12,029 bases of DNA from a virus (Duplodnaviria > Heunggongvirae > Uroviricota > Caudoviricetes), in IMG/VR virus record IMGVR_UViG_2703718839_000007; one strand, written 5' to 3'. The translations under genes were made by a program, and so were the position numbers. Positions within the stretch are counted from its first letter, which is position 1. Every line of letters starts with the position of its first letter. The notes beneath the pieces were generated by a model. It worked only from the letters and a program-made list of their open reading frames with translations. It searched no databases and was not told where the DNA came from. Positions 21-12,029 of this stretch are shown piece by piece.

Positions 21-283
21 GTAGCCTTTTTTAATATTTCATTCTCCATTTCAATGCGTTGTAGCTTTTTCCTCAGCTTACGTATTTCGATTTGTTCTGG
101 TGTTATCGGAGAGGCTTTTGGTGTTTTGCCCTGACGCTCATCACGCAGTTGTTTGACCCATCTTGTCATTGTGGAAAGGCCAACATAGATAGCTTTGGCG
201 GCATCTGCCACCGTGTATGTCTGGTCAACAACCAGTTGAGCGGATTCGCGTTTAAACTCTGCGCTAAAATTTCTTTTTTTCAT
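21..283 (-). CDS. insN: IS3-family transposase OrfA (InsN-like helix-turn-helix protein), C-terminally truncated
   Basis: Minus-strand ATG at 283-281. Translation reads [88 protein letters not shown], then diverges from IS911 OrfA where the IS30-like repeat begins. Confidence 0.7.
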
Positions 284-355
284 TGGAGCACCTGTGTTGT
301 TCTGAGGTGAGCATATCACCTCTGTTCAGGTGGCCAAATTCAGTAAACCACTTCA
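21..355 (-). mobile_element. IS3-family insertion sequence, IS911-like left end (terminal repeat, leader and most of orfA), truncated or interrupted near position 20
   Basis: Minus-strand terminus at 355 begins TGAAGTGG...TGGCCACC, typical of IS3-family ends (5'-TG). The orfA start lies about 70 nt inside, and the orfA product is near-identical to IS911 InsN as recalled. Confidence 0.7.
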
Positions 356-375
356 GAGCAGACGAGACAAAAAGA

Positions 376-948
376 ATGGTTGACGCATCAGCTCAACCCC
401 ATATAGTTGTAACACTTGAGCCAAACCCTTGGGCCGCTTTTTACTTTGATATTAACATTGCTAATACAGGGAACGCACCTGCCTATAATGTTGAGGTTGT
501 GTTTGATCCTCCACTAGTAAATGCGGAGCATAGAGAAAAAAGTGAGATTCCGTTTAGTAAGGTAAGCGTGTTAAAAAATGGGCAATCACTTACCAGCAAT
601 CTCTGTAAGTATGAACAAATCAAAGATCAAATTTATAATATTAATATAAGCTGGGCAAGCAAACCTAAATCAAACGATAGAGAAACAAATGAATATGTGT
701 ATGACATGGCGACATTTGAAGGAATAAGTTATCTAGGAGCGAGAAGCCCATTGACGCAAATTGCAGAACAAATTAAAGGTATAAGAGAGGATTGGAAACC
801 TATTGCACAAGGAGCTAAAAAAGTAAAAGCAGACGTATATACTTCAAGCGATAGAAACGAAGAACGCACGTATCTGCAAGAGCAACACGATTTGGCAATA
901 AAAAGGAGAGATGAGAAAAGAGAAAAAAGATTAGAGTCTGGTGAATAA
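376..948 (+). CDS. Hypothetical protein (190 aa from ATG 376); AT-rich accessory gene, possibly 5'-truncated by the adjacent IS
   Basis: Uninterrupted frame to TAA at 946-948. The six-frame ORF starts at a TTG at 283 inside the IS, so the first ATG outside the IS (376) is taken as start; its ribosome-binding site is weak. N-terminal beta-rich segment followed by a charged K/R/E/D-rich C-terminus. No family recognised. Confidence 0.5.
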   Translation: MVDASAQPHIVVTLEPNPWAAFYFDINIANTGNAPAYNVEVVFDPPLVNAEHREKSEIPFSKVSVLKNGQSLTSNLCKYEQIKDQIYNINISWASKPKSNDRETNEYVYDMATFEGISYLGARSPLTQIAEQIKGIREDWKPIAQGAKKVKADVYTSSDRNEERTYLQEQHDLAIKRRDEKREKRLESGE

Positions 949-996: not shown

Positions 997-1821
997 TTAA
1001 TCACTTATTTTTGACAACAGATAATTACTGAACGCACTGCAAGTGACTAACATAAATTTAGCTTCAGCTAAGGTAGGATTTACATCTTCTTCTGTTAGCG
1101 CATGACGTATTCCACCCTGATCACTTGTATAACCATAGAGCTGACTAAAAGCGCCTTTCATTGCAGAGTGTATATATCCTTTTTCCTCTATAGCTTTAAG
1201 ACAAGCCCCCAAGGTTCCTTTATCATTGCCCGTGATTTTCCTGCATAAAGATTCAATTGCAGAGATAGACTCTTTAATCGAGTTTCTGTAGTCTGGCTGC
1301 TCTCTATCCGTCATTAGTTGTAACGCCCTTTCGAAATGGCTACGCGATGAATCAGTGCCATTATCAACTGCGTTCTGAACACTTTCAATTTCGTTATCAT
1401 TTGAAATAGGAGTAATACAACCATTTATTATGGTATAACCAACGCCATGCTTTTTAAAGATGGAATTGAGATGCTTCGATAGATTAATATATGAATTAGT
1501 TCTCTCAATGATGAACTCAATTAAATCATATACCAAATACCATGCTTCCCCATATATATAATCTCGGATAGCAGTCAGCAACGTCTTATCACTTTTGTAT
1601 CCACTTTCATAACGAGGAATATTATCCGCAGGTTGATTTAGATAATATATCCACACAGACTGCGCACATTTTGTTGCTGTAGCAGTTTGACGATTGTTAG
1701 TCCAAAGGAAAAGATATAAGCAATTCCACAATGCCATGCGTGTATCAGAATTAAGATCATTCAGCTGGACATGCTCTCTAACGTCAACATGACCATACCT
1801 CACAGAAAATGGCTTTATCAT
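997..1821 (-). CDS. Hypothetical protein (274 aa), AT-rich accessory gene; possibly abortive-infection-like, unverified
   Basis: ATG at 1821-1819 preceded by GGGGAAGA; stop TAA at 999-997. Sequence composition differs sharply from the GC-rich satellite core. No catalytic motif recognised confidently. Confidence 0.6.
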   Translation of the reverse strand: MIKPFSVRYGHVDVREHVQLNDLNSDTRMALWNCLYLFLWTNNRQTATATKCAQSVWIYYLNQPADNIPRYESGYKSDKTLLTAIRDYIYGEAWYLVYDLIEFIIERTNSYINLSKHLNSIFKKHGVGYTIINGCITPISNDNEIESVQNAVDNGTDSSRSHFERALQLMTDREQPDYRNSIKESISAIESLCRKITGNDKGTLGACLKAIEEKGYIHSAMKGAFSQLYGYTSDQGGIRHALTEEDVNPTLAEAKFMLVTCSAFSNYLLSKISD

Positions 1822-2354: not shown

Positions 2355-2377
2355 TGGTGCGAAGGCCGGACTCAAAC
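2355..2377 (-). other. att core: partial copy of a tRNA 3' end (tRNA-Leu/leuX-like), the likely satellite-host junction
   Basis: Minus strand reads GTTTGAGTCCGGCCTTCGCACCA, i.e. T-arm, acceptor 3' strand and CCA, differing at two positions from the leuX 3' end as recalled. The upstream sequence is not tRNA-like, so this is a partial repeat rather than a tRNA gene. P4 integrates at leuX with att adjacent to crr/alpha. Confidence 0.55.
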
Positions 2378-2520
2378 ATCAAAATAAGTTAATGATAAAA
2401 AACAAATAATAAAATACAACAATGAAATATGCCCCCTTTTGTGCCCCCACTGTTTTTCTGACCAATCTATTTTCAGCCCATCAATAAATCGGAAAGTTAA
2501 ATCATTTTTAATCAGTAAGT

Positions 2521-2543
2521 TTGGATCCGTAGCTCGGATCCAA
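2521..2543. repeat. Perfect inverted repeat (9-bp stem, 5-nt loop) between att and the crr-like repeats
   Basis: TTGGATCCG (2521-2529), loop TAGCT, CGGATCCAA (2535-2543); contains two GGATCC sites. Confidence 0.5.
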
Positions 2544-2589
2544 ACCAGTGCATCTTTTATCCACATAAAAAATTTTTTTTCGAAAGAAC

Positions 2590-2870
2590 TGTTCACACTG
2601 TTCACCTTTCTTTTTTCTCCTTTTATTTCAGAGTGATAGGTGGTGAATAATGGGTGAAGGGTGAACATTCGATTCTTCACCTCCGGCATTCTGCCGGTGT
2701 GACTCATACCGGTGATTAATCCCCCGTACTGAAATCACACAGGGAGAAAAAAAGTTTTTTTTGATTTGATTGTTCACACTGTTCACCTTTCGTTTTTCTC
2801 TTTTAATTTCAGTGTGATAACGGGTGAATATACGGTGAAGGGTGAACAGTGGATTGTTCACCTTCGGGGA
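2590..2870. repeat. cis replication region (crr-like): two ~100-bp direct repeats carrying alpha-binding type I iterons
   Basis: Copy A about 2590-2690 and copy B about 2771-2870 are near-identical (both start TGTTCACACTGTTCACCTTTC... and contain GGTGAA / GGTGAACA inverted copies). P4 crr is described as direct repeats with TGTTCACC octamers next to the 3' end of alpha. Confidence 0.7.
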
Positions 2871-2921
2871 ATTCAGGGATAAAAAAAGACCGGCAGATGC
2901 CGGTCAGATGAGTCATGATGG

Positions 2922-5255
2922 TCAGGTTGTTGCAGGGTCGTCACATTTTGGCAGCCAGTCGCCGTAGCTTTCCTCTTTCAGCGTCAGGTTGGTCTGTATC
3001 CCCTGTTTGGTATGGCGCTTCTCGTAATTCAGTCCGTATTCTTTCAGCATCACCGGCAGCCCCAGCCCGAACATTTTCAGACTGAGTACATTCCGGTAGC
3101 CGTTTGCCTCCATGTAGGCCAGATAGGCGTGATAGAGGTATTTACGGTAATTACGCGGGATGATACTGGCGTTCCCCATATACATGCCGCTGGTCTGCGG
3201 CAGGGTTTCCAGATAGCCGATAAAATCAAACGTCGGGTCGGCATCCCGTTTGATGTTCAGTGCCTCGTCTGAGTTCTGCTGGGACTGAAGCAGTGACCGG
3301 GCGAGCATCGGGTCGCTGAACTTCTGCATCAGGTGACGCACGATGACCGCCAGCTCGCGGGTGATTTTGTCCTTAAGCTGCGGGTCGCGCTCCTGCGGGG
3401 CTATCTGTTCCGGGAAGTGAATAATCACCCGCCGGCGTGACACGCCGCCGCTGCGGTCGGTGAAGCGCATCGGGTTATTGTTCACGGCCAGAATCACCGC
3501 CGGGATGTGCGTGGAGTACGCATCCCGGTATTTCGGGTCAACGGACACTGCATCGCCGCCGGTGATGGCCTTGAGTCCGGCTCCGTCGCCGCTCCATTTT
3601 TCCTGGTCCGGCAGGCGTATCAGTGAGAAGCCAGTTAACGCGGCACGTTCACGCGGGGATTCCAGCGTCTCAATGGTGGCCGACGTGGCGTTATCCTCCC
3701 CGGCCAGCAGGGTGGCTATTTCGGCCATGATACTTTTGCCGCTGCCGCCGGGACCGGTCACCTCCAGAAAGAGCTGCCAGTCGTAGCGGTTTGCCAGCAC
3801 CATAAACAGTGCGGCCAGAATCACGTCGCGTTTTTCCGCACGGCCACCGGCGGCACGGTCAAGCCAGCGCCAGAACGCGGGGGCGTGGGTTTCCAGCGTT
3901 TCCCCTTCCACCGGCGGGGTGAAATCCACATCGCACAGGGTGCGCATCCAGTGTGACGGACTGTGCGGGTGGAACGTGCCGTTCTGCGTGTCGAGCACGC
4001 CGTTACGAAAGCCAATCAGGCGGCGGGAGGGGGCTTCCTGCTGCGGAATAATCAGCTTCAGGGTGTCCACCACGGAGGCCACCTTCCCGGAGGAGAACGG
4101 CGCGCGCAGCCGCTGAAACAGCCCGGCCACATCCCGGGCAAAGTCCTGTGGTGGCAGCACCTTCCAGACACCATTTTCATAACGGGACAGAAGCTGGCCG
4201 TTGGCATCAACCGCGAGCGCCTCGCCGTAATGCTCATAGATACGCATGGCCTTTTCGCTGGTACTCATGGCGGAAAACTCCGCTTCGCTCATGGTGTCGA
4301 ACGGGCTTTCAGCCGGTGGCCGGATGGCATCATAAATGGCCTTACGGGTGGCTTCCCCGCCGTACTGCGTGAAGGCATCATTCCAGTCACCGAAGACCGG
4401 CGGCAGGGCAACAACACCTTCACACGCATCTGCGGCTGCGGCGGCTTTTTTCTGGCCGTCACCGCTGAGGTCACGGTCTGCGGCAAGGACAATCTGACAG
4501 GCCGGATGCTTCTGCCGGGCAAGGCTGGCCAGAGAAAGGAGGTTCACGGAAGAAAGCGCCACCATCACCGTTTCACCGGTCAGGTGATGCACGGTAAGTG
4601 CGGTCGCGTATCCCTCCGCTATCCACAGACGTTTTCCGGCCTGATTCTGTCCTTCAAGGGTGTGACAGGTGCCCCTGACCTGTCCGCCTTTCAGGGTACG
4701 CTTACGGCCGTCAGCACTGATTAACTGAAGGTTAACCAGTTCGCCGCTGTCGTCATACAGTGGCACCACAAGGTCACCGGCGCGCCAGCTCACGCCACCG
4801 GCTCTGTGTGTGCCGGTCAGCATCCGGCATTCCCGGCCGGGAAAGCCCTTGCGGGTCAGGTAGGCGTTACCGGTTCCGGGACGGGTTTTCGCCATCAGGG
4901 TTTGTGCCAGTGCGGCGGCGTTCTTCCGGGCAGCGTCTGTTTCAGCAACGGCGGCGGTCGTCACTGCCGGGTCAGCCGGTGGCAGGCTGCCGGTCACGGC
5001 AGCCACCTTTGCGGCCGCGTCGGACGGGGAAACACCAAACACCTTTTCAACCAGTTTCAGGCCGTCACCGGCACCACACTGATTGCAGTACCAGGTGCCG
5101 CGCCCCTCCCTGTCATCAAAACGGAAGCGGTCACTCCCGCCACAGACCGGACAGGGCTGATGACGGTTCTTCAGCACCTGAATCCCCAGCGCCGGGAGAA
5201 TACGCGGCCAGTGGCCGAGCGCATGGCTGACGGTGGCGGTTACGTTCATTTTCAT
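2922..5255 (-). CDS. alpha: P4 alpha-type replication protein: primase, SF3-like helicase and origin-binding domains (777 aa)
   Basis: ATG at 5255-5253 preceded by AAGGAG. N-terminal zinc motif CPVCGGSDRFRFDD...YCNQCG, primase motif EGYATALTV, Walker A GPGGSGKS. Length 777 aa equals P4 alpha as recalled. Iteron clusters lie on both sides. Confidence 0.93.
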   Translation of the reverse strand: MKMNVTATVSHALGHWPRILPALGIQVLKNRHQPCPVCGGSDRFRFDDREGRGTWYCNQCGAGDGLKLVEKVFGVSPSDAAAKVAAVTGSLPPADPAVTTAAVAETDAARKNAAALAQTLMAKTRPGTGNAYLTRKGFPGRECRMLTGTHRAGGVSWRAGDLVVPLYDDSGELVNLQLISADGRKRTLKGGQVRGTCHTLEGQNQAGKRLWIAEGYATALTVHHLTGETVMVALSSVNLLSLASLARQKHPACQIVLAADRDLSGDGQKKAAAAADACEGVVALPPVFGDWNDAFTQYGGEATRKAIYDAIRPPAESPFDTMSEAEFSAMSTSEKAMRIYEHYGEALAVDANGQLLSRYENGVWKVLPPQDFARDVAGLFQRLRAPFSSGKVASVVDTLKLIIPQQEAPSRRLIGFRNGVLDTQNGTFHPHSPSHWMRTLCDVDFTPPVEGETLETHAPAFWRWLDRAAGGRAEKRDVILAALFMVLANRYDWQLFLEVTGPGGSGKSIMAEIATLLAGEDNATSATIETLESPRERAALTGFSLIRLPDQEKWSGDGAGLKAITGGDAVSVDPKYRDAYSTHIPAVILAVNNNPMRFTDRSGGVSRRRVIIHFPEQIAPQERDPQLKDKITRELAVIVRHLMQKFSDPMLARSLLQSQQNSDEALNIKRDADPTFDFIGYLETLPQTSGMYMGNASIIPRNYRKYLYHAYLAYMEANGYRNVLSLKMFGLGLPVMLKEYGLNYEKRHTKQGIQTNLTLKEESYGDWLPKCDDPATT

Positions 5256-5269
5256 GGTGTTGTTCTCCT

Positions 5270-5590
5270 TCAGTGCAGTACCGGCGCTTTTATGTGACGG
5301 GCACAGAGTTCATCCATCACAACCAGCCCGAGAAAGGACAGCGACGGCGCGGCCTTCAGGGGGCCGGATTCCATTAAATCTTCCAGCAGGGCACAGGCTA
5401 TCTGACGCCCTTTTTCCTCACCGTGCTGGCGCAGATAAAAGCCTTCCAGCTCAGCGGCGATGGCCGCCTCCAGTGATTCAAGGGTGAGATGCGGGTAGCG
5501 GTGCTGACGTTCGCACACGGTCAGCCAGGCACAGGCGACAGCGCGACGGTAAAGGGCAGCGCGTAAGACGGGCGGTAAGGGGGTTTTCAT
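5270..5590 (-). CDS. Small protein of the alpha operon (106 aa), P4 orf106-like; function unknown (a copy-number-control role is only a guess)
   Basis: ATG at 5590-5588 preceded by GGGAGG at 6-nt spacing. Stop is 14 nt upstream of the alpha start, same strand. Confidence 0.7.
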
Positions 5591-5725
5591 TTGTTTTCCT
5601 CCCTGTGACAGATGACTGCATTCCGTGCCGGTTGCATTAACTGATAAGGCATATCTGCGTCTCCTGAAGACGTGCGTATCCCTGCGCGAATACGCACATT
5701 TAATTTTTCGGGTGTCGTTTTTTAA

Positions 5726-6181
5726 TTACAGATAATTGCGGTAACTGTTATCCGGGGTGATTTCCGGGTCAGGCTCCGTGCGGGGAATTTCCCGCCATTC
5801 CCGCGCCACCGGTGCCGCCCGGCTGACCGGAACAGGGTCCTGCGGGTAAATATCCAGATATTTCTCCCGCCATTTCTGTAATTCCGGGTCTCCGGCCATT
5901 TCTTTCAGTACCGCATGCCGGTTTACGGGGCTGCGTCTGAACAGGTCAGGACGGTCACAGGTAAATTCCCGCAGAAAACGCCCCAGCGGGATGTCTGTGG
6001 TGCGCCCGTCAGCGAGGATACGCACAAGGATACTGAATTTACGGCGGTACGGGTTCCAGACAATTTCCGGGCAGCGGTACGGCATTTCCCACGGAATACC
6101 GTCTTCCAGAATGCCGACCACGGCCACATCGGGAAAACCGGCAGAACGGTAAATCTCACCGGGCTGGGGAAAATCAAACAT
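5726..6181 (-). CDS. Hypothetical protein of the alpha operon (151 aa), P4 orf151-like
   Basis: ATG at 6181-6179 preceded by AGGA. Start overlaps the stop of the upstream gene (ATGTTTGA), indicating translational coupling. Confidence 0.7.
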   Translation of the reverse strand: MFDFPQPGEIYRSAGFPDVAVVGILEDGIPWEMPYRCPEIVWNPYRRKFSILVRILADGRTTDIPLGRFLREFTCDRPDLFRRSPVNRHAVLKEMAGDPELQKWREKYLDIYPQDPVPVSRAAPVAREWREIPRTEPDPEITPDNSYRNYL

Positions 6182-6461
6182 GCGTCCTGTCTCCCCGGTC
6201 TTGCTGCTGGGCGAGAAAATCGCGGCACAGGCCTTTGGCTTTCAGCTCATTCAGCACAAAATCAATATCTTCATTCAGGTAGCTGAAAATATGCGGAATG
6301 TAGAGCTGATGCAGGCCGGAGAGTTCACGGTGAATCAAATCACCCCCAACAAACTGGGATACGGCGCTGGCGCGGTTGAGCTTATGGTAAGCCTCAATGC
6401 TGAGGTGTTCACGGGCGTCATGACGCGCTGAGACGGTCTGAGGGGCTTTTTTATTACGCAC
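6174..6461 (-). CDS. Epsilon-like small protein (95 aa), candidate P2-derepression (anti-repressor) protein
   Basis: There is no in-frame ATG after the upstream stop, but a GTG at 6461-6459 sits 6 nt after GGAGG (6472-6468), giving a 95-aa product. That equals P4 epsilon length as recalled. Stop overlaps the start of the 151-aa gene. Confidence 0.55.
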
Positions 6462-6651
6462 GGGACACCTCCACCACCGGCAGACGGGCAGCAAGGGAGA
6501 GCACATAGTCACGGACAAGGGAACGGCGGGCGCTGCGTTCATCACCGGCGACGGTGCGAAGCATGCAGATACGGGGATGACGGTCTGCGCGACGGACAGC
6601 CGCAAACACAAAGACAAATTCAGGGTGTGAGGGGGTAAGGGTTGTAGCCAT
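6454..6651 (-). CDS. Small protein (65 aa), first well-supported translated gene after the leader; kil-like by position (unverified)
   Basis: ATG at 6651-6649 preceded by GGAGG at 8-nt spacing; stop TAA at 6456-6454. The same frame is open upstream to an ATG at 7053 (199 aa), see findings. Confidence 0.5.
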
Positions 6652-6984
6652 GATGGCAGCCTCCTGTGAATAGCAAATAACGCTATCGCCGGAGTTTCCA
6701 CGCTCGATGGCGATAGCCCAGACGGGGGTGGAAATACCGGCTTCACAGGATACCGGCCAGCCCGGAGGCTGCCCCGCCTGAGCTACCATTGACTCTGCGG
6801 CATAATGAGCGGACGCGGGCAGGATGCACGGAATGCCATCTGCACGACTGACCACACACCACACCATAATCTGGCGCTCTGTGGCGTTGATTGCGACACA
6901 AAAAAAGACGCATGGCGCGTCATATGTCGCCTGTGAATTGCTCGGGTTTCCACGCCCGGCTGCCGATTTTGCGGCAGCGGAAAA

Positions 6985-7014
6985 ACTATATCCGCAAATG
7001 CCGGAAAAAGGCAA
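6985..7014 (-). promoter_or_regulatory. Candidate sigma-70 promoter (PLE-like) reading leftward into the leader and kil/epsilon/alpha operon
   Basis: Minus strand: -35 TTGCCT (7014-7009), 18-nt spacer, -10 TATAGT (6990-6985), about 60 bp downstream of the vis stop. Pattern match only. Confidence 0.3.
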
Positions 7015-7049
7015 GCCAGAAAAAGGGAGTTTTTGCAGAGCGGGCATCA

Positions 7050-7316
7050 TCATGCGTCATACCCCCGTTTGCGTCCGGCAATGCGGCCGGCCATCCATGC
7101 GGTGACTTCAGAGTGCAGCCAGGCCACATTTTTACCGCCAAGACTCACCTGCGGCGGAAATTCCCCCTTACGGATGAGTTCATAGATGGTCGAGCGTGAC
7201 AGGCCGCACAGGTGCATCACTTCCGGCAGACGTAAAAAACGCTCCTGCGTGATGTCCGGCAGCGGCATCAGTGGCGTCACAGGGGCGGGAGACGGGGAAG
7301 AAAAAACAGCTTGCAT
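7050..7316 (-). CDS. vis: Vis/AlpA-family DNA-binding protein (88 aa): excision and late-promoter regulator of P4-like elements
   Basis: ATG at 7316-7314 preceded by GAGGT. Helix-turn-helix region [27 protein letters not shown] is typical of the AlpA/Vis family. Length 88 aa equals P4 Vis (orf88) as recalled; it is the first gene downstream of the leftward late promoter. Confidence 0.8.
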
Positions 7317-7418
7317 CGGGCTACCTCGTTAATGTCCATACAGCACCGGATAAGTCCGTCCGGCTTCGGGTAGCGCTTTATTTTGTGAATATTTTCGGCA
7401 GACGCAACAGGGGGGATT

Positions 7419-7436
7419 TGTTCCGGCAGCCTTACA
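7419..7436 (-). promoter_or_regulatory. Delta/Ogr-type activator site (TGT-N12-ACA) of the leftward late promoter (PLL-like)
   Basis: TGTtccggcagccttACA at 7419-7436. A site centred near -55 would put the leftward start near 7372, upstream of vis (ATG 7316). Confidence 0.45.
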
Positions 7437-7460
7437 ATGCTTGTGTATTTTTTGTTCATC

Positions 7461-7490
7461 TCCACTTAAAGTCATTTAAAGCCACTTAAA
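7461..7490. repeat. Three tandem 10-bp repeats, a candidate protein-binding array
   Basis: TCCACTTAAA / GTCATTTAAA / GCCACTTAAA in exact 10-bp register (one helical turn), in the vis-sid intergenic region. Confidence 0.5.
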
Positions 7491-7595
7491 GCAATTCGTA
7501 ATTTTTATAGTGAAATACAAATCGTTTCTTCTTATTCATTCCCGGCGAATTAATAAAAACAAACAGTAGTAAACAGCACAAAAAGTCCATGAGCG

Positions 7596-7700
7596 GGTGA
7601 ACAGTGGTGAACAGACGGTGAACAGTCATTACTGCGATTGTTCACCCTTTAACTTACTGTATTACTTATCTTTTTTCTTAAGGTGAACAGAGGTGAACAG
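7596..7700. repeat. Second type I iteron cluster (ori-like) between the divergent late promoters
   Basis: GGTGAACAG at 7596-7604, 7606-7614, 7617-7625, 7682-7690 and 7692-7700, plus an inverted TTGTTCACC at 7638-7646. Same octamer as the crr-like repeats about 4.9 kb away; P4 ori and crr are about 4.5 kb apart. Confidence 0.65.
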
Positions 7701-7778
7701 TAAAATATAAAAAAACAAACAGTAAGCCGGTTTTTCCTGCGACCTTTTCCTGGCTTGCCGGTCTGAGGATGAGTCTCC

Positions 7779-7836
7779 TGTGTCAGGGCTGGCACATCTG
7801 CAATGCGTCGTGTTGTTGTCCGGTGTACGTCACAAT
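7779..7836 (+). promoter_or_regulatory. Psid-like late promoter with two TGT-N12-ACA activator sites
   Basis: TGTgtcagggctggcACA at 7779-7796 and TGTccggtgtacgtcACA at 7817-7834, centres 38 bp apart (about -55 and -17 relative to a start near 7843). A -10-like CACAAT lies at 7831-7836. P4 late promoters are reported to carry a second delta site near -18. Confidence 0.5.
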
Positions 7837-7868
7837 TTTCTCAACCTGAAGTGACGAGGAGCCGGAAA

Positions 7869-8603
7869 ATGTCTGACAACACCATCCCTGAATATCTGCA
7901 ACCCGCGCTGGCACAACTGGAAAAGGCCAGAGCCGCTCATCTTGAGAACGCCCGCCTGATGGATGAGACCATCACGGCCATTGAACGGGCAGAGCAGGAA
8001 AAAAATGCGCTGACGCAGGCCGACGGAAACGACGCTGACGACTGGCGCACGGCCTTTCGTGCAGCCGGTGGTGTCCTGAGCGATGAGCTGAAACAGCGCC
8101 ACATTGAGCGCGTGGCACGCCGGGAGCTGGTACAGGAATATGACAATCTGGCCGTGGTGCTGAATTTTGAATGTGAACGCCTGAAAGGGGCGTGTGACAG
8201 CACGGCCACCGCCTACCGGAAGGCACATCATCACCTGCTGAGTCTGTATGCAGAGCATGAGCTGGAACACGCCCTGAATGAAACCTGTGAGGCGCTTGTC
8301 CGGGCAATGCATCTGAGCATCCTGGTACAGGAAAATCCGCTCGCCAACACCACCGGCCATCAGGGCTACGTCGCGGCGGAAAAGGCTGTCATGCAGCAGG
8401 TGAAATCATCGCTGGAACAGAAAATAAAACAGATGCAAATCAGCCTCACCGGCGAGCCGGTTCTCCGGCTGACCGGACTGTCAGCGGCAACACTCCCGCA
8501 CATGGATTATGAGGTGGCAGGCACACCGGCACAGCGCAAGGTGTGGCAGGACAAAATAGACCAGCAGGGTGCAGAGCTTAAGGCCAGAGGACTGCTGTCA
8601 TGA
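7869..8603 (+). CDS. sid: Sid, capsid size-determination external scaffold protein (244 aa)
   Basis: ATG at 7869 preceded by GAGGA at 8-nt spacing, downstream of the late promoter. Coiled-coil-like and alanine/glutamate-rich. Length 244 aa equals P4 Sid as recalled. Stop overlaps the delta start (ATGA). Confidence 0.85.
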   Translation: MSDNTIPEYLQPALAQLEKARAAHLENARLMDETITAIERAEQEKNALTQADGNDADDWRTAFRAAGGVLSDELKQRHIERVARRELVQEYDNLAVVLNFECERLKGACDSTATAYRKAHHHLLSLYAEHELEHALNETCEALVRAMHLSILVQENPLANTTGHQGYVAAEKAVMQQVKSSLEQKIKQMQISLTGEPVLRLTGLSAATLPHMDYEVAGTPAQRKVWQDKIDQQGAELKARGLLS

Positions 8604-9100
8604 TTTACTGCCCGTCGTGTGGACATGTTGCTCACACCCGCCGCGCACATTTCATGGACGATGGCACCAAGATAATGATTGCACAGTGCCGGAATATTTA
8701 TTGCTCTGCGACATTTGAAGCGAGTGAAAGCTTTTTCTCTGACAGTAAAGATTCAGGAATGGAATACATTTCAGGCAAACAGAGATACCGCGATTCACTG
8801 ACGTCAGCCTCCGGCAGTATGAAACGCCCGAAAAGAATGCTTGTTACCGGATATTGTTGTCGGAGATGTAAAGGCCTTGCACTGTCAAGAACATCGCGGC
8901 GTCTGTCTCAGGAAGTCACCGAGCGTTTTTATGTGTGCACGGATCCGGGCTGTGGTCTGGTGTTTAAAACGCTTCAGACCATCAACCGCTTCATTGTCCG
9001 CCCGGTCACGCCGGACGAACTGGCAGAACGCCTGCATGAAAAACAGGAACTGCCGCCAGTACGGTTAAAAACACAATCATATTCGCTGCGTCTGGAATGA
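8600..9100 (+). CDS. delta: Delta, late-gene transcriptional activator with tandem Ogr-like zinc fingers (166 aa)
   Basis: Two Cys clusters (CPSCGH...CRNIYC and CCRRC...CTDPGC), consistent with a fused dimer of Ogr-like domains. Length 166 aa equals P4 delta as recalled. Confidence 0.85.
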   Translation: MIYCPSCGHVAHTRRAHFMDDGTKIMIAQCRNIYCSATFEASESFFSDSKDSGMEYISGKQRYRDSLTSASGSMKRPKRMLVTGYCCRRCKGLALSRTSRRLSQEVTERFYVCTDPGCGLVFKTLQTINRFIVRPVTPDELAERLHEKQELPPVRLKTQSYSLRLE

Positions 9101-9173
9101 GGGCTGCCGGTTAACACCGGCCGTCGCCGCACACCGTATTTTTATTCTTCAGCATGATGAGAAAGAGATAACG

Positions 9174-9746
9174 ATGGAAAGCACAGCCTTACAGCAGGCC
9201 TTTGACACCTGTCAGAATAACAAAGCAGCATGGCTGCAACGCAAAAATGAGCTGGCAGCGGCCGAACAGGAATACCTGCGGCTTCTGTCAGGAGAAGGCA
9301 GAAACGTCAGTCGCCTGGACGAATTACGCAATATTATCGAAGTCAGAAAATGGCAGGTGAATCAGGCCGCCGGTCGTTATATTCGTTCGCATGAAGCCGT
9401 TCAGCACATCAGCATCCGCGACCGGCTGAATGATTTTATGCAGCAGCACGGCACAGCACTGGCGGCGGCACTGGCACCGGAGCTGATGGGCTACAGTGAG
9501 CTGACGGCCATTGCCCGAAACTGTGCCATACAGCGGGCCACAGATGCCCTGCGTGAAGCCCTTCTGTCCTGGCTTGCGAAGGGAGAAAAAATTAATTATT
9601 CCGCACAGGATAGCGACATTTTAACGACCATCGGATTCAGGCCTGACGCTGCTTCGGTGGATGACAGCCGTGAAAAATTCACTCCTGCGCAGAACATGAT
9701 TTTTTCGCGTAAAAGTGCGCAACTGGCATCACATCAGTCTGTGTAA
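9174..9746 (+). CDS. psu: Psu, polarity suppression and capsid decoration protein (190 aa)
   Basis: ATG at 9174 with an upstream GAGA/AAGAG; position after delta and before cos. Length 190 aa equals P4 Psu as recalled. Confidence 0.8.
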   Translation: MESTALQQAFDTCQNNKAAWLQRKNELAAAEQEYLRLLSGEGRNVSRLDELRNIIEVRKWQVNQAAGRYIRSHEAVQHISIRDRLNDFMQQHGTALAAALAPELMGYSELTAIARNCAIQRATDALREALLSWLAKGEKINYSAQDSDILTTIGFRPDAASVDDSREKFTPAQNMIFSRKSAQLASHQSV

Positions 9747-9781
9747 AACTCCCCGAAAATCCGCCCGTTTTTACTGAAAAA

Positions 9782-9810
9782 AGCCATGCATCGATAAGGT
9801 GCATGGCTTT
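9782..9810 (+). terminator. Stem-loop downstream of psu, candidate terminator of the late operon
   Basis: AGCCATGCA (9782-9790), 9-nt loop, TGCATGGCT (9800-9808): perfect 9-bp stem followed by TT. The U-tract is short. Confidence 0.35.
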
Positions 9811-9910
9811 GCATGCGTTTCCCTGCCTCATTTTCTGCAAACCGCGCCATTCCCGGCGCGGTCTGAGCGTGTCAGTGCAACTGCATTAAAACCGCCCCGC
9901 AAAGCGGGCG

Positions 9911-9929
9911 GGCGAGGCGGGGAAAGCAC
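9911..9929. other. cos site: 19-nt P2/P4 cohesive-end sequence
   Basis: GGCGAGGCGGGGAAAGCAC at 9911-9929, an exact match to the P2/P4 cohesive end as I recall it, flanked by GC-rich dyads, immediately after psu. Confidence 0.75.
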
Positions 9930-10055
9930 TGCGCGCAAGGCTGATAACATAAATAAAATACAATGAACTCATTACGTTTTATTAAATGCCGCAATGATCA
10001 CACACAATAATCTATCAATAGAGGATATTAATTTAGTAACTACAAAGGAGAACGT

Positions 10056-10367
10056 ATGCGCGATAAATTCATTGATGCCATTCATAGTTGTTTAAAAATT
10101 CAGCTAACTTTTTATTCAAAAGAAGATAACGCGACAATCACAAGATTAACTGCGCCTATGGACTTCGGTCCTAGTCGTAGAGCTCATGATAAAAGTGACA
10201 GATTCCATTTTTGGGATTACGAAAGCGATAAAAAAAGTCATGTTCTCAGTTTGCAACCTGAAGCGATTGTATCTCTAGTTGTAATCCCTCAAAACTTTCA
10301 TCCGCAAGAGTTTGTTAGCTGGACGCCAAACTGGTTTATTGCCAGAGATTGGGGCCAGTACTCTTAA
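10056..10367 (+). CDS. Hypothetical small protein (103 aa), stand-alone cargo gene in the post-cos variable region
   Basis: ATG at 10056 preceded by AAGGAG (10045-10050); stop TAA at 10365-10367 followed by a terminator-like hairpin. AT-rich relative to the core. Soluble, aromatic-rich; no family recognised. Confidence 0.7.
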   Translation: MRDKFIDAIHSCLKIQLTFYSKEDNATITRLTAPMDFGPSRRAHDKSDRFHFWDYESDKKSHVLSLQPEAIVSLVVIPQNFHPQEFVSWTPNWFIARDWGQYS

Positions 10368-10374
10368 ATACATG

Positions 10375-10395
10375 AGGCTACATACGTAGCCTTTT
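10375..10395 (+). terminator. Rho-independent terminator candidate after the 103-aa gene
   Basis: AGGCTAC (10375-10381), loop ATAC, GTAGCCT (10386-10392), then TTT. Confidence 0.5.
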
Positions 10396-10515
10396 AAATG
10401 GAATCTCCAGGGAATACGCGCGTACATTACCCGCCTCCAAAAGCCCACACTTTAAAAACGCAGGCATCATTATGATTTAATTGATTTTTATTATCTTCTT
10501 TGATGCTTAAATTGA

Positions 10516-10524
10516 TGTTATACT
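10516..10524 (+). promoter_or_regulatory. Extended -10 promoter candidate for the membrane-protein operon
   Basis: TGtTATACT at 10516-10524 in an AT-rich intergenic region about 40 bp upstream of the start codon; no good -35. Confidence 0.3.
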
Positions 10525-10564
10525 GTTTTTATATACAGATACCAGGGCAGATAAGGAGGATAAT

Positions 10565-11080
10565 ATGTTAAATAAGCTTGCCAAATATCTTCTTACTGCC
10601 AGCTCAGTTGCTCCGGTATTTTTTACCTTAGCTTTTCTTTCATGTATATCAAAACACTATAAATTTATGATTGCTTACTTATCATTGTGTGCAATTATAC
10701 TTTTACTGTGTGTTTTGATTGTTAAATACGCAATTAAATATAATTCTGTAACCAGTAAAAAATTAACTACCGCCTCTCCAGCAGATAAGGAGATAACAAA
10801 TTATTTCTTAACCTATTTATTTCCCTTAATCAGTGGTCCAGATGCATTTATGGATATTAGGATTGCTTCTTTCTTTGCTGTGAGTTTATTTTTTTACATC
10901 AGTTTTTCAGGTTCCTACAGTTTCAACCCATTATTATCATTTTGGGGATATAAATATTATGAAGCCGAAGACGATACAGGCGTAAGCTTTGTTATATTAT
11001 CGAAAAAGCCACTGTTAAAAGCATCAGGCAATCGTGTTAATTTGATTAAGCTTACTGATTACACATATATAGCAATATAG
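10565..11080 (+). CDS. Small integral membrane protein (171 aa, about 4 predicted transmembrane helices), first gene of a two-gene cargo operon; candidate defence component (KwaA-like architecture, unverified)
   Basis: ATG at 10565 preceded by AAGGAGG. Hydrophobic stretches at roughly residues 9-28, 34-57, 80-92 and 99-117, with a soluble C-terminal tail. Stop is 8 nt before the next gene. Confidence 0.75.
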   Translation: MLNKLAKYLLTASSVAPVFFTLAFLSCISKHYKFMIAYLSLCAIILLLCVLIVKYAIKYNSVTSKKLTTASPADKEITNYFLTYLFPLISGPDAFMDIRIASFFAVSLFFYISFSGSYSFNPLLSFWGYKYYEAEDDTGVSFVILSKKPLLKASGNRVNLIKLTDYTYIAI

Positions 11081-11088
11081 GAATAAAT

Positions 11089-11982
11089 ATGGAACTGTTT
11101 GCAATAACAGATAATACAGTTGGCACACGCATTGTAAAAATTGTTACTGACAGGCCGACTCAAAATGTAATCACACAGCTATTCAATGAACAAAAAACTT
11201 TTTTTGAAGAACGCTATACAGAAGGCGTAGAATTTTCAGGTGGCTACATCACTAGTGGAGATGAGTTTTTTGTCATTCCTGACTTTGATGATGTTATCGC
11301 TGTATTAGATGCTATTAATAATCCCACAACTATCCCTCCATGGGAGCCGGAAGAAATATCAGTCTTCAATATAATCGCTCTGTTTTCAGGCTATCCTGAA
11401 GAGGATGGAAAACCTGCAACTGCCTTAATCCAAAGCTTCGATAAAAGGCAAGTTATTGATAACAGAAGAACAATTTTCCAAAAACCATTTCAGGCAAGCA
11501 ATACCTTTTGCCAGTCTACTGAGCATGGTATAGTCATCGACAATAAGCTAACAGCTATTCTTGCAGGTACAGAATTAAAGTTTAAAAGCTTCCATATGCT
11601 CCGCAGGATATTTGATGTAGATGCTTATTTCAGAGAAGCCACTAATGAAGAATTAACAAGTTTTTCTTCTCATGAAAAATTTTCAGTAGCTCCGGGTTTT
11701 GATTTAACAACAATTGCTGACTCTGTTATTAGAAAGAAAGTTTCCTTGATTAATAAATCAAGAATACTTGAGGACTACTCTGTGACTGAGTTAAGAATAT
11801 CAGCGGCTGAAATTGGTGTTGTTCTAGAAACTGAAAAAATCGGTGAATTAGAAAAAATAAAAATGCCGCAAATAAGAAAAGATGTAAAAAGATTATTGCA
11901 TTTTTTAGATGAGGACTATTTCACATCCCATATAACCAGAACGCTATATCGCGCAAACTCTAAACGTCGAGAAGATGTTTAA
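11089..11982 (+). CDS. Soluble protein (297 aa) co-transcribed with the membrane protein; candidate defence component (KwaB-like by size and context only)
   Basis: ATG at 11089, 8 nt after the upstream stop, with AGGA upstream. No nucleotide-binding or nuclease motif recognised by eye. AT-rich. Confidence 0.75.
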   Translation: MELFAITDNTVGTRIVKIVTDRPTQNVITQLFNEQKTFFEERYTEGVEFSGGYITSGDEFFVIPDFDDVIAVLDAINNPTTIPPWEPEEISVFNIIALFSGYPEEDGKPATALIQSFDKRQVIDNRRTIFQKPFQASNTFCQSTEHGIVIDNKLTAILAGTELKFKSFHMLRRIFDVDAYFREATNEELTSFSSHEKFSVAPGFDLTTIADSVIRKKVSLINKSRILEDYSVTELRISAAEIGVVLETEKIGELEKIKMPQIRKDVKRLLHFLDEDYFTSHITRTLYRANSKRREDV

Positions 11983-11996
11983 TTTTTATAAAAGTT

Positions 11997-12013
11997 GGGG
12001 GGGGGAATCCCCC
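11997..12013 (+). other. G9-AAT-C5 hairpin or homopolymer tract after the cargo operon
   Basis: GGGGGGGGG AAT CCCCC at 11997-12013, 15 nt after the stop of the 297-aa gene; no U-tract follows. Confidence 0.3.
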
Positions 12014-12029
12014 ATAAGCGCTAACTTAA

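What the first reader, a model, noticed from the sequence alone, without database searches (positions are those of the whole stretch)
10565..11982. Two-gene cargo operon (4-TM membrane protein + 297-aa soluble protein) in the post-cos variable region of a P4-like satellite
The genes sit between psu/cos and the expected integrase side, where P4-like satellites carry variable cargo, often anti-phage systems. They are visibly AT-rich against a GC-rich core, separated by 8 nt, with a strong ribosome-binding site and their own promoter-like sequence. A small membrane protein paired with a roughly 300-aa cytoplasmic protein matches the Kiwa (KwaA/KwaB) layout, but I cannot confirm a DUF4868 domain by eye. 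It could equally be an undescribed membrane-effector abortive-infection pair or the P4 gop/beta-type genes.
Basis: partly seen in the sequence, partly recalled or inferred. Interest (0 to 1): 0.8.

Follow-up and report, generated by a model that had tools for sequence, protein, structure and literature searches.

The report
Known Kiwa defence operon on P4 satellite
The two genes are a Kiwa anti-phage system (membrane protein KwaA plus DNA-binding KwaB) carried as swappable cargo on a P4-like satellite; this exact cassette was published and tested in 2022, so it is not new, but its promoter carries a conserved SOS (LexA) operator that I could not find reported in the papers I could search.

Summary
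ORFs 10565-11080 (171 aa, 4 TM) and 11089-11982 (297 aa) are AT-rich, lie 8 nt apart and sit just past cos of a satellite whose core is 98.5% identical to P4.

It is not new. Rousset et al. 2022 list these identical proteins, plus the upstream 103-aa gene, as P4-hotspot system 14 ("WYL/DUF4868", 93 occurrences). They cloned the cassette (pFR79, "WYL-Kiwa") and list it among tested but not validated systems.

One possibly new point: a LexA box (TACTGTTTTTATATACAGAT, 10521-10540) overlaps the -10 element of the kwaA promoter.
- It recurs upstream of kwaA in 25 of 26 genomic and 64 of 68 viral homologous loci whose flanks are otherwise unconserved.
- The same scan recovers the recA, lexA, umuD and sulA boxes as controls.

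This clade of Kiwa is therefore probably SOS-regulated, which might explain the published negative assay. No paper in the searchable library links Kiwa to LexA.

The parts
2355..2373 (.). P4 att core (TGGTGCGAAGGCCGGACTC), the left boundary of the integrated satellite. Everything to its left is flanking island DNA.
   Evidence: It aligns with the P4 attP core at 4078-4097 with a 1-nt deletion, and identity to P4 starts here.
2922..5255 (-). P4 alpha primase/helicase gene (777 aa), part of the satellite backbone.
   Evidence: ORF; 98.5% DNA identity to P4; annotated as a P4-family primase in near-identical loci.
6706..6793 (-). C4/CI antisense immunity RNA of the satellite. isrK (6901-6978) and the c4-a1b1 targets (6939-6991) lie nearby.
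   Evidence: Rfam matches above the gathering scores.
7869..9746 (+). Late operon: sid (7869-8603), delta (8600-9100) and psu (9174-9746).
   Evidence: ORFs; P4 identity; annotation of L001 and of P4.
9911..9929 (.). 19-nt cos cohesive end. The variable cargo region starts just after it.
   Evidence: The sequence reads GGCGAGGCGGGGAAAGCAC. Identity to P4 ends at 9910, which is the P4 right end at 11624. The same sequence precedes other cargos in Rousset Table S2B clones.
10056..10367 (+). 103-aa gene, the first gene of the published three-gene cassette. Rousset et al. call it a WYL-domain protein, possibly regulatory. It has no HTH region.
   Evidence: Identical to protein 1 of system 14 and of pFR79. 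HMMER support for WYL is weak here: 3 of 32 homologs, best E=0.042. Homologs also occur without Kiwa, and Kiwa homologs occur without it.
10375..10392 (+). Terminator-like hairpin (AGGCTACATACGTAGCCT followed by TTTTAAAT) that separates the 103-aa gene from kwaAB.
   Evidence: conserved in three different genomic contexts.
10516..10540 (+). kwaA promoter core: an extended -10, TGtTATACT (10516-10524), overlapped by a LexA/SOS box, TACTGTTTTTATATACAGAT (10521-10540).
   Evidence: CTGT-N8-ACAG occurs against 0.12 expected per window. A box is present upstream of kwaA in 25 of 26 genomic and 64 of 68 viral loci, with 2 and 3 hits elsewhere in 203 kb and 232 kb. Anchored identity is 0.75 in the box against 0.33 in the flanks, and the scan recovers the recA, lexA, umuD and sulA boxes as positive controls.
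10553..10559 (+). Ribosome-binding site AAGGAGG of kwaA.
   Evidence: invariant in the alignment.
10565..11080 (+). kwaA: a 171-aa membrane protein with four TM helices and a cytoplasmic beta-barrel.
   Evidence: PADLOC KwaA PDLC00216, E=1.6e-76, full length. Homologs carry Pfam PF28043 KwaA. AF2 model pLDDT 78. The only strong Foldseek hits are KwaA 9mrx_A, 9mrr and 9mrg, all seven at E<=0.007 with TMq up to 0.68.
11089..11982 (+). kwaB: a 297-aa cytoplasmic protein with an alpha/beta N-terminal half and a C-terminal DUF4868/KwaB domain.
11997..12013 (.). G9-AAT-C5 hairpin after kwaB, a likely bidirectional terminator, cut short here by the IS.
12014..12029 (+). Terminal inverted repeat of IS421 (ATAAGCGCTAACTTAA), inserted into the hairpin.
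   Evidence: In L001 the IS421 copy ends with the reverse complement of this sequence, then a GGGGAATCCCCC target duplication, then sequence like that of TA280.

Best explanation
Window 10565-11982 is a kwaA-kwaB (Kiwa) anti-phage operon of a divergent short clade: KwaA is 171 aa and KwaB 297 aa, with 13-20% identity to the structurally solved Kiwa. It sits in the psu-cos-int cargo hotspot of a P4-like satellite integrated at a tRNA-Leu gene. Together with the upstream 103-aa gene it is the cassette already catalogued as P4-hotspot system 14, 'WYL/DUF4868' or 'WYL-Kiwa'.

Mechanism, inferred by homology to characterised Kiwa and not shown for this cassette:
- KwaA tetramers in the inner membrane hold KwaB dimers on a cytoplasmic beta-barrel.
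- Membrane distortion at a phage attachment or DNA-entry site activates the complex.
- KwaB binds the incoming DNA through its DUF4868 half and stalls replication and late transcription without killing the cell.

Regulation, inferred here from comparative sequence evidence: the operon has its own promoter whose -10 element is overlapped by a LexA operator. Expression is therefore probably repressed in unstressed cells and raised during the SOS response.
For: Identity:
- Full-length PADLOC KwaA and KwaB hits. Pfam KwaB is above its gathering score. Pfam KwaA (PF28043) is precomputed on the homologs.
- RefSeq labels gene 2 'KwaB-like' in 38 complete E. coli genomes.
- The AF2 models hit only solved KwaA and KwaB structures.
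- The KwaB family is large: 1125 cluster representatives, nearly all 285-300 aa.

Context:
- P4 backbone.
- The same backbone and the same site carry a different cargo in strain 5735.
- The same Kiwa clade sits in other mobile elements: an ArdC/PilI island, a Photorhabdus prophage and a lambdoid prophage.

Prior record: proteins identical to Rousset Table S1B system 14 and to clone pFR79.

Mechanism of characterised Kiwa: Zhang, Todeschini et al. (PMC11785009).

LexA box.
Against: [quoted passage not shown] It did not place the cassette among the validated defence systems.
- Neither single-sequence nor profile sequence searches reach the solved Kiwa chains. The mechanistic transfer therefore rests on fold and family profiles at 13-20% identity.
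- The DNA-contact residues of the biochemically studied KwaB do not map by number onto this protein.
- NCBIfam's KwaA equivalog scores 32.9 bits against a cut-off of 100.
- LexA binding is predicted, not measured.
- A Pseudomonas Pf-phage Kiwa at 38% identity shows no box.
Confidence: 0.85

Rival explanations
1. The pair is a Kiwa homolog that no longer works, or never worked, as an anti-phage system in E. coli. It could be an inactive passenger, or a module with another role tied to DNA damage, such as acting on conjugative or induced-prophage DNA during SOS.
For: The identical cassette is listed only among 'additional tested systems', not the validated ones. The conserved LexA box ties expression to DNA damage rather than to infection as such. 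Characterised Kiwa systems also reduce conjugation, and KwaB prefers ssDNA.
Against: Both genes are intact and nearly identical in 31 complete genomes. The clade is widespread and keeps full length. It sits in known defence or moron positions of satellites and prophages. Rousset et al. note that their small phage panel underestimates activity, and that another system (PARIS-1) was silent from its native promoter but active when induced.
Confidence: 0.12
2. The genes are the P4 non-essential-region genes (gop/beta/cII type) or close relatives of them.
For: They occupy the same position, just after cos.
Against: BLASTP of KwaB against beta and of KwaA against gop shows nothing (E=3.9 and 22). 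The DNA has no match in the phage collection that holds P4. A tblastn of KwaB finds only two phage records, neither of them P4.
Confidence: 0.01
3. It is an undescribed membrane-effector abortive-infection pair that only looks like Kiwa in its layout.
For: Direct sequence searches against solved Kiwa chains find nothing.
Against: Full-length family profile hits at E=1e-76 and 1e-117. Unique fold matches to KwaA and KwaB. Curated Pfam KwaA and KwaB assignments.
Confidence: 0.02
4. On the regulatory sub-claim only: the conserved palindrome upstream of kwaA is not a LexA operator. It could be a promoter element, or the site of another regulator such as the 103-aa protein.
For: It overlaps the -10 element, so part of its conservation could be promoter constraint. 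No binding data exist. One published expression survey finds defence genes on the whole negatively correlated with recA.
Against: Conservation peaks at both CTGT and ACAG half-sites (identity 1.00), 12 nt apart, and the distal one lies outside the -10. The boxes score 15-18 of 20, like the genuine recA, lexA, umuD and sulA boxes found by the same criterion. The box is present in loci that lack the 103-aa gene.
Confidence: 0.15

Closest known systems
P4-hotspot system 14, 'WYL/DUF4868' (clone pFR79 'WYL-Kiwa', E. coli TA280), Rousset et al. 2022, Cell Host Microbe (PMC9122126)
   Same: All three proteins are identical in Table S1B. The position between psu/cos and int is the same, and the gene order is the same. 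The forward primer of the clone matches window 9625-9644, so the published clone contains cos, the 103-aa gene, the LexA-box promoter and kwaAB.
   Different: There is no difference of substance. As printed, the TA280 KwaB reads QKLFEERY where the window reads QKTFFEERY, which is either a one-residue variant or a typo. The window copy has IS421 inserted after kwaB. The paper mentions neither LexA nor SOS.
Characterised Kiwa (E. coli O55:H7 RM12579 structures 9MRX, 9MRR, 9MRG, 9MTN, 9NYU, 9O0I; functional work on ECOR8, ECOR12, ECOR49, D9 and Ralstonia), Zhang, Todeschini et al. (PMC11785009)
   Same: A two-gene kwaA-kwaB operon. KwaA has 4 TM helices and a cytoplasmic beta-barrel built from the intracellular loop and the C-terminus. 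KwaB has an alpha/beta N-terminal half and a DUF4868 C-terminal half. Both models match these structures uniquely.
   Different: Identity is only 13-14% for KwaB and 20-21% for KwaA. The proteins are shorter: 171 and 297 aa against chains of 195 and 315 aa. They are not detectable by phmmer or by a profile search. The listed DNA-contact residues do not correspond by number. I could not determine whether any functionally tested Kiwa belongs to this clade, because no supplementary sequences are held.
P4 gop-beta-cII
   Same: It occupies the same cargo slot after cos, and in P4 it is itself an anti-phage system according to Rousset et al..
   Different: The proteins are unrelated.
LexA-repressed SOS promoters (recA, lexA, umuDC, sulA)
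   Same: A 20-bp CTGT-N8-ACAG operator scoring 16 of 20 to the consensus, overlapping the promoter and lying 25-44 nt before the start codon. The same scan finds the genuine boxes at 15-18 of 20.
   Different: The cargo is a phage-defence operon on mobile elements, not a repair gene. Binding and induction have not been tested.
WYL-domain defence regulators (BrxR, CapW) and DNA-damage regulators (DriD, PafBC, DdaA)
   Same: Rousset et al. assign a WYL domain to the 103-aa protein. WYL domains sense ssDNA and regulate defence or DNA-damage responses.
   Different: The 103-aa protein has no HTH or WCX region. HMMER support for WYL is marginal here. It is not an obligate Kiwa partner.

Membership tests
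Kiwa (KwaA/KwaB) | KwaA is a small inner-membrane protein with four TM helices and a cytoplasmic beta-barrel formed by the intracellular loop and the C-terminus. | tested here: met
   Hydropathy and the AF2 model show helices at 2-28, 32-59, 75-89 and 98-113, and strands at 62-72, 130-136, 141-146, 157-162 and 167-170. Foldseek TMq is 0.68 to 9mrx_A. PADLOC KwaA E=1.6e-76. Pfam PF28043 KwaA is on the homologs. The NCBIfam equivalog is below its cut-off, 32.9 against 100 bits.
Kiwa (KwaA/KwaB) | KwaB is a cytoplasmic protein of about 300 aa with a C-terminal DUF4868/KwaB domain. | tested here: met
Kiwa (KwaA/KwaB) | kwaA is immediately followed by kwaB on the same strand, as one operon. | tested here: met
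   The gap is 8 nt and there is no terminator between the genes. The same order, with gaps of 2-19 nt, holds in 19 homologous loci.
Kiwa (KwaA/KwaB) | KwaA tetramers and KwaB dimers form a membrane supercomplex, and KwaB binds DNA. | not tested
   No multimer modelling was available. Only conserved basic residues in the C-terminal half were noted: K153, K166, R172, R173, R182, R215-K217, K256, R263, K264, K267.
Kiwa (KwaA/KwaB) | Confers resistance to phages, and reduces conjugation. | not testable with these tools
   The published test of the identical cassette did not validate it (Table S2B). Five other Kiwa systems are active.
P4-like satellite psu-int defence hotspot (Rousset et al. 2022) | The cargo lies between psu/cos and the integrase of a P4-like element. 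| tested here: met
   psu at 9174-9746, cos at 9911-9929, cargo at 10056-11982. The integrase and tRNA-Leu follow in near-identical loci L001 and L016. They are not in the window because of its end and the IS421.
P4-like satellite psu-int defence hotspot (Rousset et al. 2022) | The same backbone carries different cargo in other strains. | tested here: met
   Strain 5735 has the same left flank and backbone but a cargo of 313 aa plus a 151-aa RexB-like protein. P4 itself carries gop-beta-cII.
P4 gop/beta/cII | Sequence similarity to gop, beta or cII. | tested here: not met
LexA (SOS) regulon | A CTGT-N8-ACAG operator close to the consensus, located in the promoter. | tested here: met
   Box at 10521-10540, 16 of 20 matches, overlapping the -10. 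Conserved in 25 of 26 and 64 of 68 loci. The controls recA, lexA, umuD and sulA are recovered.
LexA (SOS) regulon | LexA binds the site, and transcription rises on DNA damage. | not testable with these tools
   No binding or expression data for this locus were found in the searchable literature.
WYL-domain proteins (for the 103-aa gene) | Significant match to the WYL domain (PF13280). | tested here: inconclusive
   The window protein has no Pfam hit. Of 32 homologs, 3 hit WYL weakly, best E=0.042. A PDB profile search found nothing. Rousset et al. report WYL.

The most novel reading that the evidence does not exclude
The whole enterobacterial and Aeromonas clade of short Kiwa systems, including this P4 cargo, is a LexA-repressed, SOS-induced defence. 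It would be kept low in unstressed cells and deployed when DNA damage, prophage induction or incoming ssDNA activates RecA. This would explain why the identical cassette scored negative from its native promoter. It would also make Kiwa one of the few defence families with a conserved, clade-wide link to the SOS regulon. The 103-aa gene may add a second input.
Probability: 0.55. Interest if true: 0.55.

Novelty: already known. Interest (0 to 1): 0.3.

Why it matters
As a discovery the locus adds nothing. Kiwa is a described system, its presence in the P4 hotspot is published, and these exact proteins have been tabulated and cloned.

The useful residue is regulatory. A near-consensus LexA operator sits on the kwaA promoter in almost every member of this Kiwa clade, across satellites, prophages and islands. 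If it is functional, three things follow:
- Standard plaque assays on unstressed cells from native promoters would under-report this clade.
- It gives a concrete reason for the published negative result.
- It links a membrane-sensing, DNA-binding defence to the SOS response, which can be tested with simple reporters and lexA alleles.

Tried and rejected
1. Sequence searches of both proteins against PDB chains found no Kiwa chain. I tried single sequences at E up to 10 for KwaB, and family profiles for both. Only fold comparison connected them.
2. The generic sigma-70 scan gave no site upstream of kwaA and no excess over shuffles. It was replaced by comparison between loci.
3. A second CTGT-N8-ACAG lies at the start of kwaB (11095-11110). 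It is not conserved in any homolog, because the Leu and Thr codons differ, so it is a by-product of the MELFAIT coding sequence.
4. The WYL assignment of the 103-aa protein stays inconclusive.
5. I tested whether the 103-aa gene is an obligate Kiwa partner, and it is not. It is absent from Kiwa loci in Aeromonas, Photorhabdus and a non-P4 E. coli island, and it occurs without Kiwa in Pantoea and Acinetobacter.
6. I tried to place the functionally tested ECOR8, ECOR12, ECOR49 and D9 systems relative to this clade. No supplementary sequences are held, none of the 38 near-identical genomes is an ECOR strain, and residue numbering does not match. This is unresolved.
7. A Pseudomonas Pf-phage Kiwa (38% identity) has no recognisable LexA box, and neither does a Lachnospiraceae homolog. 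The box is therefore clade-limited. Cluster-1 (O55:H7-type) Kiwa loci could not be fetched and were not tested.
8. Two scripts failed because the P4 locus file was not yet exported. Other tools did the comparison instead.
Full report
**1. The observation**

The window holds the two ORFs exactly as described: 10565-11080 (171 aa) and 11089-11982 (297 aa), both on the + strand.
- The kwaA stop codon (TAG, 11078-11080) and the next ATG are 8 nt apart. AAGGAGG lies at 10553-10559, 5 nt before the first ATG.
- GC content is 0.31 and 0.36, against 0.56 for the satellite core.
- The first protein has four hydrophobic helices and a beta-rich tail. The second has no hydrophobic segment.

The satellite context is solid.
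- Window 2920-9910 is 98.5% identical to phage P4 positions 4634-11624.
- The identity continues leftwards through the crr repeats to the att core, TGGTGCGAAGGCCGGACTC, at 2355-2373.
- Rfam finds the C4/CI RNA, isrK and the c4 target sites.
- The 19-nt cos end lies at 9911-9929.
- In a near-identical locus of E. coli 64EVA, the cargo is followed by an integrase and tRNA-Leu.

**2. What the genes are**

PADLOC profiles match both proteins end to end: KwaA (PDLC00216, E=1.6e-76) and KwaB (PDLC00222, E=6.5e-117).
- Pfam's KwaB/DUF4868 model passes its gathering score, 28.2 against 26.3 bits.
- Homologs of protein 1 carry the newer Pfam family PF28043, named KwaA.
- RefSeq already names gene 2 'Kiwa anti-phage protein KwaB-like' in 38 of 5426 complete E. 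coli genomes. Gene 1 is left as 'hypothetical', which fits its sub-threshold score against NCBIfam's KwaA equivalog, 32.9 against 100 bits.

This is a divergent clade. Neither phmmer nor family profiles reach the solved Kiwa chains. Fold comparison does.
- The KwaA model (pLDDT 78.2) matches only KwaA chains (9mrx_A at E=1.3e-5, TMq 0.68, 20% identity). It shows the published architecture of four TM helices plus a barrel built from the intracellular loop and the C-terminus.
- An exhaustive profile search finds 1125 cluster representatives of this KwaB type, nearly all 285-300 aa.

The rival readings fail. KwaB against P4 beta and KwaA against P4 gop show no similarity. The DNA has no match in a phage collection that contains P4.

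**3. It is already in the literature**

Rousset et al. 2022 (PMC9122126) name Kiwa among the known systems in the P4 psu-int hotspot.
- Their Table S1A lists the arrangement WP_001205027 + WP_000932801 + WP_000418440. These are the accessions annotated on the 64EVA locus.
- Table S1B, system 14 ('WYL/DUF4868', 93 occurrences), prints three protein sequences identical to window ORF 10056-10367, KwaA and KwaB. [quoted passage not shown]
- The cassette was cloned from E. coli TA280 as pFR79, 'WYL-Kiwa', with its native promoter. The forward primer matches window 9625-9644, so the clone carries everything from cos onwards.
- The clone appears in Table S2B, 'additional tested systems', and not in Table S2A, 'validated defense systems'. 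Of the 19 cloned systems (the canonical P4 genes plus 18 others), seven were validated. Only the TIR-NLR system protected against P2-like phages.

The exact cassette is therefore known, and its single published functional test did not show defence. The authors themselves caution that their panel was small. They also report that another system was silent from its native promoter but active when induced.

**4.

The cargo begins at 10056 with the 103-aa gene. A hairpin followed by a T-run (10375-10392) comes after it and is conserved in three different contexts. The 103-aa gene and kwaAB are therefore probably separate transcription units.

The 103-aa gene is not an obligate partner of Kiwa.
- A copy of this Kiwa 93% identical at the DNA level lies in a non-P4 island. 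It keeps only the last ~70 nt of the 103-aa gene, plus the intergenic region.
- Aeromonas and Photorhabdus homologs lack it altogether.
- Its own homologs occur without Kiwa in Pantoea and Acinetobacter.
- Support for the WYL assignment is marginal here.

After kwaB there is a G9-AAT-C5 hairpin. In this window it is interrupted at 12014 by the end of IS421.

**5. A regulatory feature I did not find reported**

The block from -10 to the start codon is conserved between the P4 cassette, the non-P4 E. coli island and a Klebsiella grimontii element, while the sequence further upstream diverges. The block contains TGtTATACT, an extended -10. Overlapping it is TACTGTTTTTATATACAGAT (10521-10540), a CTGT-N8-ACAG palindrome that matches the gammaproteobacterial LexA box consensus at 16 of 20 positions. 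The whole window has two CTGT-N8-ACAG sites against 0.12 expected. The second, at the start of kwaB, is not conserved in any homolog and is dismissed.

I scanned with a fixed criterion: at least 15 of 20 matches to the consensus, and at most one mismatch in the two 4-nt cores.
- A box lies within 70 nt upstream of kwaA in 25 of 26 genomic loci, spanning Escherichia, Klebsiella, Kluyvera, Leclercia, Citrobacter, Enterobacter, Serratia, Erwinia, Photorhabdus, Xenorhabdus and Aeromonas. Only 2 hits occur elsewhere in 203 kb.
- In IMG/VR viral contigs, 64 of 68 testable loci have a box within 80 nt upstream, with 30 distinct sequences. Three hits occur elsewhere in 232 kb, and three of the four misses are near-variants.
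- Two further E. coli relatives (KwaB 44% and 39% identical) and a Klebsiella phage also have it.
- When 15 diverse loci are anchored on the box, mean pairwise identity is 0.75 inside it (1.00 at CTG and CAG) but 0.33 upstream and 0.32 downstream.
- As a positive control, the same criterion finds exactly one site in each of four 3.5-kb K-12 regions. In each case it is the known box upstream of recA, lexA, umuD or sulA, scoring 15-18.
- A Pseudomonas Pf-phage Kiwa and a Lachnospiraceae homolog lack the box, so the feature is limited to this clade.

Neither the Kiwa mechanism paper nor Rousset et al. mentions LexA or SOS. Full-text searches found no paper linking Kiwa to LexA.

**6. How it most likely works**

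Shown here: family membership, operon structure, mobile-element context and a conserved operator-like site.

Inferred from characterised Kiwa (PMC11785009):
- KwaA tetramers anchor KwaB dimers in a membrane supercomplex.
- The complex responds to membrane distortion at phage attachment sites.
- KwaB then binds the entering DNA through DUF4868 and stalls replication and late transcription, without abortive infection.
- Lambda Gam antagonises KwaB.

The clade keeps a set of invariant basic residues in the C-terminal half. That is compatible with DNA binding but does not prove it.

Inferred from the box: LexA occludes the -10 element, so the operon is SOS-inducible. This could account for the negative native-promoter assay in lexA+ MG1655. 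However, basal expression from a 16-of-20 operator may not be negligible, so this explanation remains a hypothesis.

**7. Verdict**

The finding is an already published member of a known system in a known hotspot. The LexA-box footprint is the only element that I did not find reported. Interest is therefore low to moderate.

Noticed in passing
window 10521-10540, and homologous loci L009-L034 and L039-L108: A near-consensus LexA/SOS box overlaps the -10 of the kwaA promoter. It is conserved upstream of kwaA in 25 of 26 genomic and 64 of 68 viral loci of this Kiwa clade, although the flanks are not conserved. I found no report of it in the searchable literature.
   Followed up: yes
window 12014-12029: The last 16 nt, ATAAGCGCTAACTTAA, are the terminal inverted repeat of an IS421 (IS4 family). 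It is inserted into the G9-AAT-C5 hairpin 15 nt after the kwaB stop. In E. coli 64EVA the same insertion shows a GGGGAATCCCCC target duplication. Most other carriers lack the IS.
   Followed up: yes
window 997-1821 (- strand): A 274-aa AbiJ-NTD4 protein matches the PADLOC candidate defence family PDC-S32 (E=5.6e-104). It lies outside the satellite, to the left of the att core, in a flank found in 453 complete E. coli genomes. The window may therefore touch a second defence gene in the leuX-side island.
   Followed up: partly
window 283-948 (+ strand) and 1-280: A 221-aa ORF matches phrog_11802 (unknown function, E=1.1e-86), next to transposase remnants and the end of an IS30 copy. The corresponding annotated CDS in strain 5735 is shorter (573 nt).
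   Followed up: no
window 10056-10367: The 103-aa protein belongs to a compact, well-conserved family of about 103 aa with an invariant FHFWDY..S..H.LSL motif. The family is spread across Gammaproteobacteria and carries no Pfam assignment. It is found both with and without Kiwa. The published WYL call could not be confirmed with HMMER.
   Followed up: partly
window 2372-2707 (- strand) and 2540-2870: The ORF that RefSeq annotates as 'integrase' (111 aa) overlaps the P4 crr region with its two 120-bp direct repeats. It corresponds to P4p05, a GeneMark-only prediction, so it is probably not a real integrase gene.
   Followed up: partly
locus L016 (E. coli 5735) 21137-22542: The same P4-like backbone, the same left flank and the same tRNA-Leu site carry a different cargo: a 313-aa protein plus a 151-aa protein with a weak RexB match (E=4.4e-6). 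This is a clear example of cargo swapping at this hotspot.
   Followed up: partly
Rousset Table S2B, pFR79 protein 3, against window 11089-11982: The printed TA280 KwaB reads ...NEQKLFEERY... where the window and Table S1B read ...NEQKTFFEERY.... If this is real and not a typo, the only clone ever tested carried a one-residue deletion variant next to the invariant F39.
   Followed up: no
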